From: a virus
Lineage: Duplodnaviria > Heunggongvirae > Uroviricota > Caudoviricetes
IMG/VR virus record: IMGVR_UViG_2585427776_000015
Span: 1-8,058 of that record
Length of the DNA: 8,058 bases
Reading direction: 5' to 3' (one strand)
Shown here one piece after another: positions 1 to 6,526 of this stretch (position 1 is its first letter; each line of letters opens with the position of its first letter). A program made the translations under genes and the position numbers. The notes under the pieces are model-generated. The model ran no database searches and was not told where the DNA came from. It saw nothing but the letters and a program-made list of their open reading frames with translations.

Positions 1-544
1 ATGGAAGTCAACAAAAAGCAGCTGGCTGACATTTTCGGTGCGAGTATCCGTACCATTCAGAACTGGCAGGAACAGGGAATGCCCGTTCTGCGAGGCGGTG
101 GCAAGGGTAATGAGGTGCTTTATGACTCTGCCGCCGTTATAAAATGGTATGCCGAAAGGGATGCTGAAATTGAGAACGAAAAGCTGCGCCGGGAGGTTGA
201 AGAACTGCGGCAGTCCAGCGAGGCAGATCTCCAGCCAGGGACTATTGAGTACGAACGCCATCGACTTACGCGTGCGCAGGCCGACGCACAGGAACTGAAG
301 AATGCCAGAGACTCCGCTGAAGTGGTGGAAACCGCATTCTGTACTTTCGTGTTGTCGCGGATCGCAGGTGAAATTGCCAGTATTCTCGACGGGATCCCCC
401 TGTCGGTGCAGCGGCGTTTTCCGGAACTGGAAAACCGACATGTTGATTTCCTGAAACGGGATATCATCAAAGCCATGAACAAAGCAGCCGCGCTGGATGA
501 ACTGATACCTTACCGAAATCGGTACGGATACCGCGAAAGAGCAG

Positions 545-552
<8 letters not shown>
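1..552 (+). CDS. nu1: Phage terminase small subunit, lambda gpNu1-like; last ~10 residues diverge (deletion junction)
   Basis: 183-aa ORF; first ~170 aa (MEVNKKQLADIFGASIRTIQNWQEQGMPV...KAMNKAAALDELIP) match lambda Nu1 as I recall it, including the N-terminal HTH region. The tail (YRNRYGYRERADL) is not Nu1-like. ATG is at window position 1. Confidence 0.8.
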
Positions 553-1748
<1,196 letters not shown>

Positions 1749-1759
1749 TGAGCCGCTGA

Positions 1760-2227
1760 TGCTTGAACCCGCCTATTGCACCACCAGATATTCCGGCAGG
1801 CTTCGTGGCTGTTTTCAACAGTGATGAGGCATCGTGGCATCTCGTTGAAGACCATCGGGGTAAAACGGTTTATGACGTGGCTTCCGGCGACGCGTTATTT
1901 ATTTCTGAACTCGGTCCGTTACCGGAAAATGTTACCTGGTTATCCCCGGAAGGGGAGTTTCAGAAGTGGAACGGCACAGCCTGGGTGAAGGATACGGAAG
2001 CAGAAAAACTGTTCCGGATCCGGGAGGCGGAAGAAACAAAAAACAGCCTGATGCAGGTAGCCAGTGAGCATATTGCGCCGCTTCAGGATGCTGCAGATCT
2101 GGAAATCGCAACGGAGGAAGAAACCTCGTTGCTTGAAGCCTGGAAGAAGTATCGGGTGTTGCTGAATCGTGTTGATACATCAACTGCACCTGATATTGAG
2201 TGGCCCGCAATCCCTGTTATGGAATAA
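1760..2227 (+). pseudogene. tfa: Tail fiber assembly protein (Tfa) C-terminal fragment with no credible native start
   Basis: Translation ...[88 protein letters not shown]...[11 protein letters not shown] matches the C-terminal ~150 aa of lambda Tfa from memory. The frame opens just after a stop at 1757-1759, and the only in-frame start is a TTG at 1763 with no RBS. Confidence 0.75.
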
Positions 2228-2587
2228 TAGTTTTGTGATATGCCGCAGAAACGTTATATGCAATAACGTGCTGCGGTTGGCTGATGTACTTTCGAGAGTG
2301 TATTGAATAATTTCCAACCGTCATTAATTTTATTTATTTTTTGTATGAGAGGATTTGAACCTCCGAGCCTCGACACCTTATGACAACGCGATATTGCCTT
2401 GATGACCGCCATGTGCCAAAATAACCAATTGATAAATAAGTTGATTTTAATTGGTTGGAAGCAAGTCAGGTCAAATTCAGCATTCCGCTCTCTGTATCGG
2501 ATAGTTAAATTTTTCTATAACTGATAGTAATATGTTAAAACTCACACAGATAAATTATCATTGCTCAACAAGTATAATGGAGTTCCC
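2228..2587 (+). promoter_or_regulatory. Non-coding, AT-rich leader and putative promoter region of the McrB-like operon; contains two palindromes
   Basis: 360 bp with no ORF. Interrupted palindrome at 2243-2276 (ccgcagaaacgttat / ataacgtgctgcgg). Inverted repeat AACCAATT (2423-2430) / AATTGGTT (2449-2456) around two direct TTGAT. GGAG at 2579-2582 sits 5 nt before GTG 2588. I cannot place the -35/-10 boxes reliably. Confidence 0.3.
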
Positions 2588-4543
2588 GTGGATACAGCAG
2601 AACATGATGGCAAGTTTGCTTGGGCTAGTTTTTATGAGGCTTTTGCCAACGCGTTACTGACTTGGCGAAATCGTAGAGATGAATTAGTCAAAGGTATTCA
2701 TCTAATTGCCCCGGGTGTGGAAGGAATGTCCCATCTGCAGGACAAATCTATTATGGGAGAGATCTTTCCCTTAAAAGACATTTGTCCGTTTACTACTATG
2801 GGCTTGTTCAATCGTAACTTGACCGACAGCAATCGCAAAATTATTGCTGCCAAGCTAGCGAATTTGTTGGGCGTGAACGAACCGATTCCTGACTCCTTTG
2901 CCGGAATCCCTCTGTTGAATAACCAAAAATCTTGGTTCTTTGGTTATGAAAAGTCACGCGACCCTAATGACATTGAATGCTTGTGGGAAATGTTCTCACA
3001 GGCAATGACCTTTGCGGATAACCAGAATACTAACTCTGCAGACTTCACTGCCGCATATGACATCGCTTCTACAGTAATGAATGTCGGTTGGAATCTCACC
3101 ATGGGGTTGTACTGGACCCGTCCTTGGTTCTACCCCACTTTAGATAGCCAGTCGCAGTATTACATTCAGACAGTGTTAAACATTAAGATCATTAAAAACG
3201 GGGCAAAAGGTCGCTGTAGTGGACAAAGTTACCTGAGTCTTATGCGGGCGCTGAACGAGGTCTTTACCCAACCAAACTATCCGGTTCATTCTTTCCCAGA
3301 ACTTTCCTTATCAGCGTGGAATACAGATCTTAGCCAGTCTAAAGATGAGGTGGCAAATAGAACGTGGAAAGCCTCTTTACTGAATAAAATTAAGGCGTTA
3401 TGCCTGAAAAAAAATGGCCCTTATTTCACTGCTTCGGAGTTGGAAGAAAACTACTTGGACGTTTTCAAGGTAGAGCATCCTGAGAGCAAAACTGTTACAA
3501 GCTCAATCTACTTTTATCTACAGAAACTATGCAATGATGATGAGTTAAAGTCCCTCGAGTCCGGAAATTATGAATACCTGAATTTTGAGAAAAACGAATC
3601 CCAGACGATAACTGAGGAAACTGTCGAAGAGAGTGCGCTGTCGCCAAAACTCACCCACGTTCCTTATGACATCAGTCATCTGGTGCAGGATGGCTGTTTC
3701 TTGGAAGAGGCTAAGATCCAACTCACACTTCAGCGCCTGATCGACAAGAAAAACCTGATATTACAAGGACCACCCGGAACTGGAAAAACTTGGTTAGCGC
3801 GACGTCTGGCGTACTGCTTGATGGGAGAAAAAGCACCTGAGCGTATTAGCGCGGTGCAATTTCACCCGAACCTCTCTTACGAAGACTTTATTCGCGGCTG
3901 GCGTCCAGGTAAAGAAGGGCAATTGACGCTAATTGATGGACCTTTTGTAAATGCAATCAAAACTGCAGTCAATAATCCTACCTCGAAATATGTGGTGATA
4001 ATTGAAGAGATTAATCGTGGCAATCCGGCGCAAATCTTCGGTGAAACACTCACGTTGATGGAAGCAGATAAACGCACGCCGACTGAGGCATTATCTCTTT
4101 CCTATCCTAAAAATGCTGATGAAAAAATATACATTCCTGAGAATCTATATATCATCGGTACGATGAATATTGCAGACCGCTCACTCGCACTACTTGACCT
4201 AGCGCTGCGCCGTCGTTTCGCGTTTATCGATCTAAAGCCAGCTTTTAATGACGCGTGGAGAAACTGGGTAAATTATAATTACGCAATTGATTTTGACATG
4301 TTAGCATTCATCAAATCTCGACTGACGGTATTAAACGATATGCTGGCAAAAGATGTTACCTTAGGACCACAGTTTTGTATCGGTCACAGCTATGTCACCC
4401 CAGCTATCGGCCAAAAAATCAACGATGCCCAGGCTTGGTATGAACAAGTCGTTGATACAGAGATCTGCCCTTTGCTCGCCGAATATTGGTTCGATGCTCC
4501 AAATAAAGTCGATGAAGCCAGAAAAGTGTTATTAGCAAAATGA
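2588..4543 (+). CDS. McrB-family AAA+ GTPase with an N-terminal ~380-390 aa region of unknown family (Type IV restriction motor / specificity subunit homolog)
   Basis: C-terminal ~270 aa carry Walker A GPPGTGKT (3766-3789), Walker B-like VVIIEEINR (3993-4019), the McrB signature MNxxDRS (MNIADRS, 4163-4183) and RRRF, and align throughout with E. coli McrB from memory (ILQGPPGVGKTFVARRLAY..., YIIGLMNTADRSLAVVDYALRRRF). The N-terminal region shows no similarity I can recognise. The open frame begins at TTG 2561 (no RBS); GTG 2588 is preferred because of the GGAG 5 nt upstream; the first in-frame ATG is about codon 56. Confidence 0.85.
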   Translation: MDTAEHDGKFAWASFYEAFANALLTWRNRRDELVKGIHLIAPGVEGMSHLQDKSIMGEIFPLKDICPFTTMGLFNRNLTDSNRKIIAAKLANLLGVNEPIPDSFAGIPLLNNQKSWFFGYEKSRDPNDIECLWEMFSQAMTFADNQNTNSADFTAAYDIASTVMNVGWNLTMGLYWTRPWFYPTLDSQSQYYIQTVLNIKIIKNGAKGRCSGQSYLSLMRALNEVFTQPNYPVHSFPELSLSAWNTDLSQSKDEVANRTWKASLLNKIKALCLKKNGPYFTASELEENYLDVFKVEHPESKTVTSSIYFYLQKLCNDDELKSLESGNYEYLNFEKNESQTITEETVEESALSPKLTHVPYDISHLVQDGCFLEEAKIQLTLQRLIDKKNLILQGPPGTGKTWLARRLAYCLMGEKAPERISAVQFHPNLSYEDFIRGWRPGKEGQLTLIDGPFVNAIKTAVNNPTSKYVVIIEEINRGNPAQIFGETLTLMEADKRTPTEALSLSYPKNADEKIYIPENLYIIGTMNIADRSLALLDLALRRRFAFIDLKPAFNDAWRNWVNYNYAIDFDMLAFIKSRLTVLNDMLAKDVTLGPQFCIGHSYVTPAIGQKINDAQAWYEQVVDTEICPLLAEYWFDAPNKVDEARKVLLAK

Positions 4544-5661
4544 CGACAATAACCGGGAGTGAGCAACATACAGCATCACGTATTCCCATGCGAAATATCT
4601 GGATGCTGATGCTGTACGCTTCAGATCTGTTTCGCCAGTTAGGGCGCAATCAGATCGCAGTAGAAGATAACCCAGCAGAAATCCCCGACCTGGTGGCGAC
4701 AATCCTCCTTCATGAGATTACGCTGCGCCGACGTCGCAATTTAAATATGGGATACCAAACTTGTCATGCGGCCCTGAACCGGGTGAGAGGGCGCATTGAC
4801 ATACTGTATACTGCCAGTCATCAACTGCTGGAACGGGGACAGGTTGCCTGCCATTTTCAAGACATAACCCTCAACACCCCCCGAAATCGCTATGTTCGCT
4901 GTGCGTTAGAACGTCTGGCCTCAATCATAGTGAAACCGTCTTTGGCGGCAGATTGCCATTTTATGGCAATATCACTTCGCCGTGAGGGGATAAATGGAGG
5001 ATATCCTGCCCCCCACGAATTACCCTCAGTGTGGCGTTTTGGACGCCATGATGCCGCAGATAAACCGATGGTCGATGCCGCACGATTAGCTTTTGAACTG
5101 CTGATGCCGACCGAAGATCAAGGCCAATATCTTTTACCTGCGCCCTCAAATAACCTTTACTGGATGAGAAGACTATTTGAAAAAGGTATCGCTGGCTTAT
5201 ATCGTGTACACCTTGACAAAACAACTTGGCAGGTCTCTGCAGGGAAAGAGCTGAAATGGGCGTTGAGCGATCAAAGTGCAGGTAGTGCAGAGATTTTCCC
5301 GACAATGAAGTCAGACATTATTCTGGAACACAAGACTGCCCAGCGGCGTATTATTATCGATACCAAATTTAATTCGATTCTGACAAAGGGTTGGCATCGG
5401 GAGCAATCACTACGTAATGGCTATATTTATCAGCTATATACCTACCTTAGAACACAGGAGAACAAGACGGATCCGCTTTCGCTCAATGCCGCTGGTCTTC
5501 TACTTCATCCAGCTGTTGGCTATATGCTTAATGAGTATGTTGTCACTCAGGGACATAAGATCCATTTTGCTACAGTAGATATGACGGTAGATGCTAAAGC
5601 AATTAAAAAACAATTGCTGGCAATAGCCCATGATTGTGCAGGAGTCGCGGTTGATGACTAA
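4540..5661 (+). CDS. McrC-family PD-(D/E)xK endonuclease subunit (373 aa), translationally coupled to the McrB-like gene
   Basis: Start ATG overlaps the upstream stop (ATGA at 4540-4543). N-terminus IPMRNIWMLMLYAS resembles E. coli McrC IPVRNIYYMLTYAW. Nuclease core SDIILEHK...RRIIIDTKFNS (D259 at 5314-5316; D274-T-K276 at 5359-5367) parallels McrC ETDITI...ILIVDAKYY. The following NGYIYQLYTYL resembles McrC QNLYQLMNYL. Confidence 0.85.
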   Translation: MTTITGSEQHTASRIPMRNIWMLMLYASDLFRQLGRNQIAVEDNPAEIPDLVATILLHEITLRRRRNLNMGYQTCHAALNRVRGRIDILYTASHQLLERGQVACHFQDITLNTPRNRYVRCALERLASIIVKPSLAADCHFMAISLRREGINGGYPAPHELPSVWRFGRHDAADKPMVDAARLAFELLMPTEDQGQYLLPAPSNNLYWMRRLFEKGIAGLYRVHLDKTTWQVSAGKELKWALSDQSAGSAEIFPTMKSDIILEHKTAQRRIIIDTKFNSILTKGWHREQSLRNGYIYQLYTYLRTQENKTDPLSLNAAGLLLHPAVGYMLNEYVVTQGHKIHFATVDMTVDAKAIKKQLLAIAHDCAGVAVDD

Positions 5662-6017
5662 CCATCCTATAGGGCACTGGCTGTAATATAATCAATAGTT
5701 TCAATTAAGTAGCTGTTATCCGTGCTTAGTCATCATATGACGCACCACGGTCTAATTTTCCTGCTCATACATTGATATATCCTTGTCGTGCCCGGAAAGT
5801 CGCAGTCCACTATGAGGTATACCGATTGCCAGCACCAAAAGCTTCTTTGTGATTATTATATCGGGGAATGCCTATTTTTTTAGTGACAATATCAGATAGC
5901 AATTAATAAGCGGTGCCGGTAATGGATGTTATGTTTAATGTATAGACACAGCCATCATAAACTAAACGTCTGTTGTTCGCTCATAACCGACATTTATCTC
6001 AGTTATGGAGGATAATT

Positions 6018-6098
6018 ATGTATGCAGATAATGGGGCAGACAGTCGTGGAGTAAACAAGGTTTTGCACTGCTTGGCGGCATCGTTATCTTATTTTTAA
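6018..6098 (+). CDS. Hypothetical 26-aa small protein (MYADNGADSRGVNKVLHCLAASLSYF), speculative
   Basis: Consensus Shine-Dalgarno GGAGG (6007-6011) sits 6 nt upstream of the ATG, inside otherwise ORF-free AT-rich DNA. The C-terminal half is hydrophobic. There is no homology evidence; the call rests on the RBS only. Confidence 0.2.
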   Translation: MYADNGADSRGVNKVLHCLAASLSYF

Positions 6099-6141
6099 TT
6101 ATGTGCCTCTTAACATAAGTTGGGACAAAACAGAGACACAT

Positions 6142-6173
6142 AAGGTCTCACAAAGGTCTGCAAGGCCTCACAT
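6142..6173. repeat. Three tandem imperfect ~10-bp direct repeats (AAGGTCTCACA / AAGGTCTGCA / AGGCCTCACA)
   Basis: Read directly from the sequence at 6142-6152, 6153-6162 and 6163-6172. Spacing is one helical turn, as expected for an iterated protein-binding site. Confidence 0.5.
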
Positions 6174-6361
6174 GTATTGAGATGTTAATAAAATGTAGAC
6201 TTGTAATTTGGATATAAATGGTAGAGAAAACCTTTCCCCAAAATAAAAACGAACGTCAATGAAATCAAACGGTTGAATAAAGTTAATTTTGGCTAATAAA
6301 AAGACAATAAAATAATTTTTATCATTAAATATCAATGACTTGAATTCATGGTTTTTATATA

Positions 6362-6526
6362 CTGCTGCGCCATATGGGTTGGACTGAAGCGGCTGACCTG
6401 ATTGTTAAAGGTATGGAAGGCGCAATCAATGCCAAGACCGTAACTTATGACTTCGAACGTCTGATGGAAGGCGCTAAGCTGCTGAAATGTTCAGAGTTTG
6501 GTGAAGCGATCATCGAAAACATGTAA
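6362..6526 (+). pseudogene. icdC: icd 3' fragment: last 54 codons of isocitrate dehydrogenase plus stop, the duplicated attachment region (icdC-like)
   Basis: In-frame translation [54 protein letters not shown] matches the Icd C-terminus from memory. Homology begins abruptly at 6362, after AT-rich non-icd DNA. 165 bp, no start codon and no upstream icd sequence. Confidence 0.85.

What the first reader, a model, noticed from the sequence alone, without database searches (positions are those of the whole stretch)
2561..5661. Intact McrBC-like two-gene cassette with an unassigned N-terminal module, embedded in a dead prophage
Two translationally coupled genes (ATGA overlap at 4540-4543) encode an McrB-family GTPase (GPPGTGKT, MNIADRS, RRRF) and an McrC-family PD-(D/E)xK nuclease (SDIIL...IIIDTKF). 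In McrBC systems the McrB N-terminal domain is the DNA-modification reader that sets target specificity, and here that module is replaced by about 390 aa I cannot match to any family. The cassette is full-length while every flanking phage structural gene is truncated, which suggests it is maintained by selection as a defence or restriction system of unknown specificity.
Basis: partly seen in the sequence, partly recalled or inferred. Interest (0 to 1): 0.85.

Follow-up and report, generated by a model that had tools for sequence, protein, structure and literature searches.

The report
McrBC-type restriction cassette, uncharacterised DNA reader
This is an intact two-gene McrBC-family restriction system carried as cargo at the end of a decayed E. 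coli prophage; its DNA-reading head is not the usual methylcytosine reader but a widespread, catalogued and still untested domain (DUF8425) followed by a DpnI-like winged helix, so what it attacks is unknown.

Summary
Window 2588-4543 (start probably GTG 2588, not TTG 2561) and 4540-5661 encode a McrB-type AAA+ GTPase and a McrC nuclease joined by a conserved ATGA overlap. They sit at the attR (icd') end of a degraded lambdoid/e14-like prophage, in the slot where K-12 e14 carries mcrA.

The cassette occurs in 317 of 5426 complete E. coli genomes. It is a portable module (Salmonella, Enterobacter) and is under purifying selection (dN/dS about 0.12 in every domain).

The "unassignable" N-terminus resolves into three parts:
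- Pfam DUF8425 (residues 1-249).
- A long helix plus a DpnI_C-like winged helix (279-330).
- A disordered linker.

This NTD-wH-NTPase/McrC architecture was already noted, untested, by Helbrecht et al. 2024. The wH keeps only 1 of DpnI's 5 Gm6ATC-reading residues, which fits a Dam+ host.

Verdict: a real, probably functional Type IV system. It is an uncharacterised variant of a known kind, of moderate interest.

The parts
2492..2587 (+). Conserved upstream leader of the cassette. It contains GGAG (2579-2582) 5 nt before the GTG start. The promoter was not identified.
   Evidence: E. coli/Salmonella nucleotide homology (87%) begins at 2492 and ends at 5657. Sequence read. The consensus promoter scan found nothing convincing on the + strand here.
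2588..4543 (+). mcrB-like gene (651 aa from GTG 2588; PGAP 'AAA family ATPase' WP_000379041.1).
2588..3334 (+). N-terminal domain, residues 1-249 = Pfam DUF8425 (PF28527). It is mostly alpha-helical. The most conserved stretch, NVGWNLTMGLYW (3080-3115) ... PTLD (3134-3145), resembles an HhH hairpin followed by the 'GPD' aspartate.
   Evidence: Pfam assignment. AF2 model pLDDT 93, pTM 0.91. Conservation. Weak HhH-GPD similarity.
3335..3595 (+). Long connecting helix (residues 248-275) and DpnI_C-like winged helix (residues 279-330, window 3422-3577). The recognition helix is SSIYFYLQ (3500-3523).
3596..3691 (+). Low-confidence, acidic, poorly conserved linker (residues 337-368).
   Evidence: pLDDT below 50 for residues 337-358. 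Highest dN/dS of any segment, 0.29.
3692..4540 (+). McrB-type AAA+ GTPase domain plus lid (residues 369-651). Walker A 3767-3790, Walker B 3992-4018, NxxD signature MNIADRS 4163-4183, RRRF 4208-4219.
4540..4543 (+). ATGA stop/start overlap (translational coupling of mcrB-like and mcrC).
4540..5661 (+). mcrC (373 aa). It has the DUF2357-type N-terminal region plus a PD-(D/E)xK nuclease. The catalytic D...DxK motifs are at 5311-5325 (SDIIL) and 5350-5370 (IIIDTKF).
5662..6359 (.). AT-rich, ORF-poor spacer between the cassette and attR. It belongs to the prophage side. It is not shared with K-12 e14 or with the Salmonella copy. Its role is unknown.
6360..6526 (+). attR / duplicated icd 3' fragment (icdC-like). 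Chromosomal homology to K-12 starts at 6360.

Best explanation
[quoted passage not shown] Inferred from the solved EcoKMcrBC mechanism: the McrB-like protein forms a GTP-hydrolysing AAA+ hexamer; McrC plugs into the ring, stimulates GTPase activity and cuts DNA with its PD-(D/E)xK site; the N-terminal modules decide which DNA is engaged. The winged helix most likely provides general or context-dependent duplex binding rather than Gm6ATC reading. DUF8425 is most likely the modification sensor, and my best guess is that it is a highly diverged HhH-GPD (Ogg/EndoIII-like) base-interrogating fold. The predicted targets are therefore non-host, probably hypermodified, bases in phage DNA, while host Dam and Dcm methylation is ignored. 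Shown here: gene integrity, family membership of the motor and the nuclease, the domain map, selection, portability and genomic position. Inferred: activity, target class, and the fold ancestry of DUF8425.
For: Motor and nuclease:
- McrB GTPase domain is 46.8% identical to K-12 McrB with all signature motifs.
- McrC passes the NCBIfam equivalog cut-off, and its catalytic D/D/K align with K-12.
- The ATGA overlap is conserved across genera.

Maintenance:
- dN/dS is 0.116 (DUF8425), 0.124 (wH), 0.107 (AAA+) and 0.156 (McrC) against Salmonella.
- 317 of 5426 complete E. coli genomes carry it, 289 nearly full length.
- The same two-gene module sits in unrelated loci in Salmonella and Enterobacter.

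Defence context:
- It occupies the slot of the Type IV enzyme gene mcrA in e14.
- Sister prophages carry other defence-like cargo.

Reader:
- DUF8425 is almost always attached to McrB-type GTPases, sometimes in 2-3 tandem copies, and is combined with interchangeable restriction-type wH modules (DpnI_C, Mrr_N, HARE-HTH). This is the behaviour of a specificity domain.
- DpnI's wH contacts are E228, K229, R231, Q232 and Q235 (PMC3424567). In the E. coli protein the aligned residues are S, S, Y, F, Q.

Fold of DUF8425:
- The top 43 Foldseek PDB hits are all HhH-GPD glycosylases (best E 0.2, probability 0.63).
- hhalign against a MutY/Nth profile gives P 0.013 and aligns the VGW hairpin to GVG and D186 to the catalytic D138.
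- In a block-shuffle null, 1 of 120 shuffles reached the real score.
- An inactivated EndoIII/Ogg1 sensor of hypermodified DNA is reported to occur fused to McrB-like GTPase (PMC12191111).
Against: - No experiment exists for this family. One purification attempt on an NTD-wH-NTPase/McrC pair failed (PMC11037411).
- Pfam HhH-GPD/OGG models do not hit even at E up to 10.
- Single-sequence hhalign against Nth, MutY and AlkA was negative.
- I could not obtain END nuclease sequences. The link between DUF8425 and the published iEndoIII-McrB fusion is therefore an inference, not a test.
- No promoter was identified.
- PADLOC 2.0 models do not recognise the pair as a system.
- Some E. coli copies are disrupted: an IS3 insertion in ML35 and partial mcrC remnants.
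Confidence: 0.6

Rival explanations
1. It is an adenine-methylation (6mA)-dependent McrBC. The DpnI-like winged helix is the true sensor, as in the characterised wH-nuclease fusions, reading 6mA in a non-Dam context. DUF8425 would be an accessory domain.
Against: Only 1 of the 5 DpnI methyl-pocket/base-contact residues is retained; R231 and Q232 are replaced by Y and F. All enterobacterial hosts are Dam+. The wH is the dispensable, interchangeable module in the family: most DUF8425-McrB proteins lack it (2 of 104 top AAA+-bearing representatives matched it), and others carry Mrr_N or HARE-HTH instead. The authors themselves say only about 10% of wH fusions carry the GATC/6mA motif.
Confidence: 0.12
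2. It is functionally a second EcoKMcrBC: a 5mC/5hmC-dependent enzyme whose different reader converges on the same class of targets.
For: The motor and nuclease are closest to EcoKMcrBC, and NCBI names McrC as the 5mC system protein. It replaces mcrA, a 5mC/5hmC enzyme, at the same prophage slot.
Against: Functional names here are transferred from the conserved subunits only.
Confidence: 0.15
3. DUF8425 is a catalytically active DNA glycosylase, so the system excises a modified base and the McrBC motor/nuclease acts on or next to the abasic site.
For: An acidic residue (D186; E in a few members) is conserved in at least 90% of members. It sits at the N-cap of a helix about 19 residues after the hairpin and aligns to MutY D138. 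Defence glycosylases exist (Brig1/Brig3).
Against: There is no HhH lysine (W-N in place of R-K). Fold similarity is weak. The published related sensors are described as inactivated. A nuclease partner makes excision unnecessary.
Confidence: 0.08
4. It is inert baggage: an intact-looking but unexpressed or non-functional remnant that survives by hitch-hiking at a prophage end.
For: No promoter was identified. Some genomes carry disrupted copies. There are no experimental data.
Against: dN/dS is about 0.12 over 1,000 codons with dS 0.5 against Salmonella. Catalytic motifs are intact. The coupling overlap and the 96-bp leader are conserved. The cassette remains while the surrounding prophage loses integrase and all morphogenesis genes.
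Confidence: 0.05

Closest known systems
EcoKMcrBC (E. coli K-12 mcrB/mcrC; PDB 6hz4, 6ut6)
   Same: Two-gene operon with overlapping stop/start. McrB-type AAA+ GTPase with Walker A/B, the MNxxDRS signature, RRRF and a lid (46.8% identity over 282 aa). McrC with the aligned PD-(D/E)xK D/D/K.
   Different: The N-terminal reader is DUF8425 + helix + wH (about 368 aa) instead of the about 160-aa DUF3578/ADAM 5mC-flipping domain. McrC is only 24% identical. The location is prophage cargo at icd rather than the immigration control region. No counterpart of the internally initiated McrB-S product annotated for K-12 mcrB was looked for here.
NTD-wH-NTPase / McrC-like pairs (Helbrecht et al. 2024, PMC11037411)
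   Same: [quoted passage not shown]
   Different: That paper gives no characterisation (one failed purification). The E. coli wH lacks the Gm6ATC motif that defined the tested wH fusions. Whether their examples include this exact clade was not checked.
END nucleases and their inactivated EndoIII/Ogg1 (iEndoIII) sensor (bioRxiv 2025, PMC12191111)
   Same: A modification-dependent defence enzyme whose sensor is a glycosylase-derived HhH fold. The authors report the sensor also fused to McrB-like GTPase. DUF8425's only structural and profile similarities point to the same superfamily.
   Different: END enzymes are single-chain PLD or NucS-like nucleases. Homology between DUF8425 and the END C-terminal domain was not tested here. 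DUF8425 keeps a conserved acidic residue at the position of the catalytic Asp, whereas the END sensor is described as lacking catalytic residues.
R.DpnI C-terminal winged helix (PF17726; PDB 4esj/4kyw)
   Different: The recognition-helix residues E228/K229/R231/Q232 are replaced by S/S/Y/F. The Pfam score is below the gathering threshold (14.8 vs 23 bits). It is attached to a GTPase motor rather than a PD-(D/E)xK domain.
EcoKMcrA in prophage e14
   Same: The same genomic niche: the last cargo gene(s) between the pin-type invertase/tail-fibre region and attR in an icd-integrated element. Both are Type IV restriction functions.
   Different: Unrelated proteins (McrA is a single-chain HNH enzyme with the NEco reader). 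There is no nucleotide homology left of attR.

Membership tests
McrB-type AAA+ GTPase | Walker A GxxGxGK[ST] | tested here: met
   GPPGTGKT at residues 394-401 (window 3767-3790).
McrB-type AAA+ GTPase | Walker B acidic pair followed by INR | tested here: met
   VVIIEEINR (K-12: FIIDEINR), a conservative D-to-E change.
McrB-type AAA+ GTPase | McrB signature NxxD motif (MNxxDRS) and the RRRF arginines | tested here: met
   MNIADRS and RRRF are aligned to K-12 MNTADRS and RRRF.
McrB-type AAA+ GTPase | Sequence homology of the motor domain to EcoK McrB | tested here: met
   E 5.7e-76 to 6hz4_A. 46.8% identity over 282 aa. NCBIfam NF008457 matches positions 176-452.
EcoK McrB equivalog (full-length, 5mC-specific) | Full-length match including the DUF3578/ADAM 5mC reader (NCBIfam cut-off 637 bits) | tested here: not met
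   262.6 bits, motor only. No DUF3578 hit in Pfam.
McrB-type AAA+ GTPase | GTP-specific hydrolysis, hexamer formation, stimulation by McrC | not testable with these tools
   Biochemistry is required.
McrC | Family profile match above the curated threshold | tested here: met
   NF007277 355.3 bits vs cut-off 338. PF10117 E 4.5e-21.
McrC | PD-(D/E)xK catalytic D...D-x-K aligned to the K-12 'ETDITI ... IVDAKY' motif | tested here: met
   'kSDiil ... iiIDtKf' aligns with 'eTDitI ... ivDaKy'. K-12 residue numbers are from memory (D244/D257/K259).
McrC | Encoded immediately downstream of McrB in one operon | tested here: met
   ATGA overlap, conserved in three genera.
Pfam DUF8425 (PF28527) | Profile match to the family | tested here: met
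   Precomputed Pfam hit on the 99%-identical P0001 and on orthologues P0009/P0017. The model is absent from the local Pfam copy, so it was not re-scored.
DpnI_C winged helix (PF17726) | Profile match above the gathering score | tested here: not met
   14.8 bits vs 23, E 0.032, full-length profile coverage. Significant in relatives P0022/P0024/P0150 and flagged for P0017.
DpnI_C winged helix (PF17726) | Winged-helix fold closest to DpnI | tested here: met
DpnI-type Gm6ATC/6mApT readers | Recognition-helix residues E228, K229, R231, Q232, Q235 | tested here: not met
   The aligned residues are S, S, Y, F, Q.
HhH-GPD DNA glycosylase superfamily / iEndoIII sensor | Fold similarity to Ogg/EndoIII/MutY | tested here: inconclusive
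HhH-GPD DNA glycosylase superfamily / iEndoIII sensor | HhH hairpin plus a Gly/Pro-rich loop plus a conserved Asp about 20 residues downstream | tested here: inconclusive
   (G/N)VGW-NLTMGLYW-xRPWxxPTLD has the right spacing and secondary structure. hhalign aligns it to MutY GVG...D138 with P 0.013 and probability 3.3%. The empirical null gave 1 of 120. Pfam HhH-GPD gave no hit.
HhH-GPD DNA glycosylase superfamily / iEndoIII sensor | Direct sequence homology to END nuclease C-terminal domains | not tested
Type IV restriction / anti-phage defence system | Restriction of modified DNA or phage in vivo | not testable with these tools
   PADLOC 2.0 HMMs give only generic AAA hits.

The most novel reading that the evidence does not exclude
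DUF8425 is a glycosylase-derived (HhH-GPD/Ogg-EndoIII-like) base-interrogating module. This cassette would then be the McrBC-motor branch of the recently proposed END-type sensors. It would be a GTP-driven restriction machine, present in about 6% of complete E. coli genomes, that recognises a broad range of hypermodified phage bases (glucosyl-hmC, 7-deazaguanines and others) while ignoring host Dam/Dcm marks. Because the GPD-position acidic residue is conserved, it might even retain base-excision chemistry.
Probability: 0.35. Interest if true: 0.7.

Novelty: new variant of a known kind. Interest (0 to 1): 0.5.

Why it matters
McrBC is the textbook modification-dependent restriction enzyme, yet only a handful of its reader domains have known targets: DUF3578 for 5mC, YTH for 6mA, and the LlaJI B3-like domain.

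DUF8425 appears to be one of the largest McrB-associated reader families. About 1,900 clusters at 50% identity match it, it is sometimes present in tandem, and it is combined with several restriction-type wH modules. It has no assigned function.

A copy sits in about 1 in 17 complete E. coli genomes, in the host where the full toolkit is available: BASEL and T-even modification mutants, and methylation-free strains. Determining its target would:
- assign a function to a large DUF;
- test whether DNA-repair glycosylase folds were repeatedly recruited as sensors of hypermodified phage DNA;
- matter for phage-therapy host range and for cloning or transforming DNA into wild E. coli.

The locus also shows Type IV enzymes being swapped as cargo at one prophage slot (mcrA versus this cassette).

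Tried and rejected
- Local Pfam, NCBIfam and PADLOC scans of the N-terminus gave no family, even at E up to 10. The reason is the age of the library, not absence of a family.
- phmmer of the wH segment against PDB sequences gave only noise. DpnI was reached only through a relative's wH.
- hhalign of the DUF8425 alignment against single Nth, MutY and AlkA sequences was not significant.
- The profile built from a MutY/Nth database search was low in diversity (Neff about 2), because the hits were almost all enterobacterial MutY. This limited the profile-profile test.
- The AlphaFold-database Foldseek library was unavailable.
- I looked for DUF8425 attached to PLD nucleases (END-type) among short representatives and on plasmids and found none. 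I found truncated McrB proteins, HARE-HTH and DpnI_C fusions, and a Bacteroidales FRG-domain fusion.
- The phage database has no full-length relative, so I have no intact phage carrying the cassette.
- The E. coli W genome paper and the Brig3 paper were irrelevant.
- A tRNA-like string upstream (about 2340-2390, minus strand) is not called by ARAGORN.
- The consensus promoter scan did not explain expression.
- I considered and rejected a CoCoNuT/RNA-targeting reading: the signature is NxxD, there are no coiled coils, and the nuclease is active.
- I considered and rejected an LlaJI-like methyltransferase-linked system: no methyltransferase lies adjacent in any context examined.


Full report
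1. WHAT IS IN THE SEQUENCE

The window is E. coli chromosome at the right end of a prophage integrated in icd.
- The left 2.2 kb holds fragments of lambdoid packaging, portal and tail-fibre-assembly genes.
- From 6360 onward the sequence is 99.8% identical to K-12 downstream of e14: the icdC fragment, iraM and ycgX.
- Between them lie two long ORFs on the + strand, 2561-4543 and 4540-5661.
- The sequence 'gcaaaATGAcgaca' confirms the four-base stop/start overlap at 4540-4543.
- The same ATGA junction is present in other E. coli alleles and in the Salmonella and Enterobacter copies. In Salmonella the internal Met that PGAP sometimes uses as the McrC start is a GTG (valine) codon, so the overlapping ATG is the conserved start.
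- The first gene most likely starts at GTG 2588, not TTG 2561. A GGAG lies 5 nt upstream, PGAP uses this start, and orthologues are 650-651 aa.

All residue numbers below use the 651-aa protein.

2. MOTOR AND NUCLEASE ARE BONA FIDE McrBC PARTS

Residues 369-651 match the EcoK McrB GTPase domain.
- E 5.7e-76 to PDB 6hz4 and 46.8% identity over 282 aa.
- NCBIfam McrB positions 176-452 are matched, as are Pfam AAA_5 and the newer Pfam McrB_lid.
- Motifs: Walker A GPPGTGKT, Walker B VVIIEEINR, the McrB-specific MNIADRS (NxxD) and RRRF.

The second protein is McrC.
- It passes the curated NCBIfam McrC equivalog threshold (355.3 vs 338 bits) and Pfam PF10117.
- It is only 24% identical to K-12 McrC.
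- In the alignment to the solved McrC, 'SDIIL ... IIIDTKF' falls on the catalytic 'TDITI ... IVDAKY'.

The full-length McrB equivalog threshold is not met (262.6 vs 637 bits) because the K-12 reader domain is absent.

3. THE N-TERMINAL 368 RESIDUES ARE NOT UNASSIGNABLE

The local Pfam, NCBIfam and PADLOC copies gave nothing. The precomputed annotation of homologues shows PF28527 and PF28529, and a later call names them DUF8425 and McrB_lid.

An AlphaFold2 model built on 95 homologues (pLDDT 85) divides the region into four parts:
- a compact, mostly helical domain (residues 1-247);
- a long helix (248-275);
- a winged helix (279-330);
- a disordered acidic linker (337-358).

3a. The winged helix
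- By sequence the E. coli segment is sub-threshold for Pfam DpnI_C (14.8 bits, E 0.032, full profile coverage).
- Relatives are significant: E 1e-12 to 6e-8, and the 67-71%-identical Enterobacter orthologue is flagged.
- In DpnI the wH reads fully methylated Gm6ATC through E228, K229, R231, Q232 and Q235 of the recognition helix (PMC3424567).
- I recovered the DpnI sequence through a relative ('KEKIRQQLQILRDKE') and aligned the family. The E. coli, Salmonella, Pectobacterium and Enterobacter clade has S, S, Y, F/Y, Q at those positions.
- The fold is therefore DpnI-like but the Gm6ATC-reading residues are gone. That is what one expects in Dam+ hosts.
- Helbrecht et al. state that only about 10% of wH fusions keep the GATC/6mA motif and that the specificity of the rest is unclear.

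3b. DUF8425
- A domain-only model is confident (pLDDT 93, pTM 0.91).
- The family is large: 1,935 clusters at 50% identity at E up to 1e-3, and 1,340 at E up to 1e-10.
- Among the 148 best representatives, 104 carry a McrB-type AAA+ domain downstream. Most of the rest are short fragments. Fourteen have two or three tandem DUF8425 copies, and many have an extra unassigned N-terminal extension of about 160 aa.
- The module next to it is interchangeable: DpnI_C, Mrr_N (P0114) or HARE-HTH (P0139).
- A Bacteroidales plasmid protein joins a DUF8425-like domain to an FRG domain.
- This distribution is that of a specificity or sensor domain dedicated mainly to McrBC systems.

3c. Fold of DUF8425

No solved structure matches strongly, but what similarity there is points one way.
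- Foldseek finds nothing significant (best E 0.2, probability 0.63, TM 0.2-0.36). However, the top 43 hits are all HhH-GPD glycosylases: SsOgg, OGG1, MjOgg, Tm1821 and MutY.
- The most conserved stretch, (G/N)VGW-NLTMGLYW-xRPWxxPTLD, lies on helix-hairpin-helix secondary structure. An acidic residue conserved in at least 90% of members (D186) sits at the N-cap of the next helix.
- hhalign against single Nth, MutY and AlkA sequences was negative.
- hhalign against a MutY/Nth profile gave P 0.013 (probability 3.3%) over 137 columns. The hairpin aligned to GVG and D186 to the catalytic D138.
- In a block-shuffle null, 1 of 120 shuffles reached the real score: real 24.7, null 16.7 +/- 2.6.
- There is no HhH lysine.

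I treat an HhH-GPD origin as a hypothesis at roughly even to slightly better odds, not as a finding.

4. WHAT THE LITERATURE ALREADY SAYS

- Helbrecht et al. [quoted passage not shown] They report one failed purification and no characterisation.
- The END-nuclease preprint (PMC12191111) shows that an inactivated EndoIII/Ogg1-like domain is the sensor that lets PLD and NucS-type nucleases restrict phages with many different hypermodified bases. It states that the same sensor is found fused to McrB-like GTPase.
- I could not obtain their sequences, so identity between that sensor and DUF8425 is inferred only.
- A full-text search for DUF8425, the RefSeq accession or 'wH-NTPase' finds nothing else.

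5. GENOMIC BIOLOGY

Distribution
- The cassette (window 2200-5900) is in 317 of 5426 complete E. coli genomes. 289 are nearly full length, and almost all copies are chromosomal.
- Where examined, it lies at the attR end of icd-integrated prophage remnants of varying decay:
  - 730V1 has partial nohD and tail genes.
  - UK_Dog_Liverpool has int/xis but truncated replication genes and a pin-type recombinase pseudogene just upstream.
  - Strain 67-1 has an IS3-split integrase and no morphogenesis genes.
- K-12 e14 has pinE-mcrA-icdC at the same place, and there is no nucleotide homology left of attR. Two unrelated Type IV restriction functions therefore occupy one cargo slot.
- The window's exact arrangement is not in any complete genome; the best match covers 95%.

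Portability
- The unit conserved with Salmonella is 2492-5657 at 87% nucleotide identity.
- In Salmonella it sits in an island beside a NACHT-like giant protein.
- In Enterobacter it lies between housekeeping genes.

Selection
- dN/dS against Salmonella is 0.116 (DUF8425), 0.124 (helix+wH), 0.290 (linker), 0.107 (AAA+) and 0.156 (McrC), with dS about 0.4-0.5.
- Some copies are broken: an IS3 insertion in ML35 and partial mcrC remnants.

6. MOST LIKELY MECHANISM

By homology with the solved EcoKMcrBC complex (established knowledge; PMC7680126 and PMC6344862 were listed):
- a hexameric GTPase ring engages DNA through its N-terminal readers;
- McrC inserts into the ring, stimulates GTP hydrolysis and cleaves.

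- I infer that the diverged wH supplies duplex affinity. It is the dispensable, swappable part of the family and has lost DpnI's specificity residues.
- I infer that DUF8425 is the discriminating sensor. It is the invariant, sometimes multiplied part, and is under the same constraint as the motor.

Because the hosts are Dam+ and usually Dcm+, the target must be something other than those marks. Given the glycosylase-like hints and the END precedent, hypermodified phage bases are the leading candidate.

Activity, target and fold ancestry are inferences. Integrity, family membership, domain map, selection and context are shown.

7. VERDICT

- This is an uncharacterised variant of a well-known kind of system. 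It is already catalogued as a DUF and mentioned in two papers, but nobody knows its target.
- It is common enough in E. coli and testable enough to be worth an experiment, but a specialist would not find its existence very surprising.
- Interest 0.5. The more novel reading (an Ogg/EndoIII-derived sensor on a McrBC motor, possibly broad-spectrum) gets probability 0.35.

Noticed in passing
window 1986-2184 (+): Full-length Rfam IS009 (RF02111) match, 220.9 bits against a gathering score of 117. It lies inside the tail-fibre-assembly gene remnant.
   Followed up: no
window about 2340-2390 (-): A string resembling the 3' half of a tRNA (…GTCATAAGGTGTCGAGGCTCGGAGGTTCAAATCCTC). ARAGORN calls no tRNA. 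It is shared with other E. coli carriers but lies outside the module conserved with Salmonella. It may be a relic attachment site or a phage tRNA fragment.
   Followed up: partly
window 5662-6359: About 700 bp of AT-rich, ORF-poor DNA between the mcrC stop and attR. It is absent from K-12 e14 and from the Salmonella copy of the cassette. Its content is unexplained.
   Followed up: partly
window 1-1774: The left part is a mosaic. Against strain 730V1 only 1-507 and 1774 onward align, so the tfa gene is chimeric or 5'-truncated here. No complete E. coli genome contains the whole 8-kb arrangement; the best match covers 95% (strain 74-2).
   Followed up: partly
window 4540 vs 4588; L002 14335, L013 22815: PGAP annotates McrC from the overlapping ATG (373 aa) in some genomes and from internal Met17 (357 aa) in others, although the DNA at the junction is identical. 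This is an annotation inconsistency.
   Followed up: yes
L001 6998-10407; L002 7044-8108; L013 13371-15799: Sister prophages at icd carry other defence-like cargo: an HD-domain protein plus a DUF4041 protein; a DGQHR-domain protein; a phosphoribosyltransferase-like protein plus a NADAR protein next to an MT-A70 methyltransferase pseudogene.
   Followed up: no
proteins P0121, P0122, P0123, P0134, P0212 and others: Some McrB homologues carry two or three tandem DUF8425 domains, and many have an additional conserved N-terminal extension of about 160 aa with no Pfam match.
   Followed up: partly
L011 3998-5482 (Parabacteroides distasonis plasmid): A 494-aa 'FRG domain-containing protein' begins with a DUF8425-like domain (29% identity, E 8e-15).
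   Followed up: partly
L008 10389-14426 (Salmonella): Directly downstream of the Salmonella cassette is a 1,345-aa protein with faint NACHT and DUF8371 hits. It may be another defence gene in the same island.
   Followed up: no
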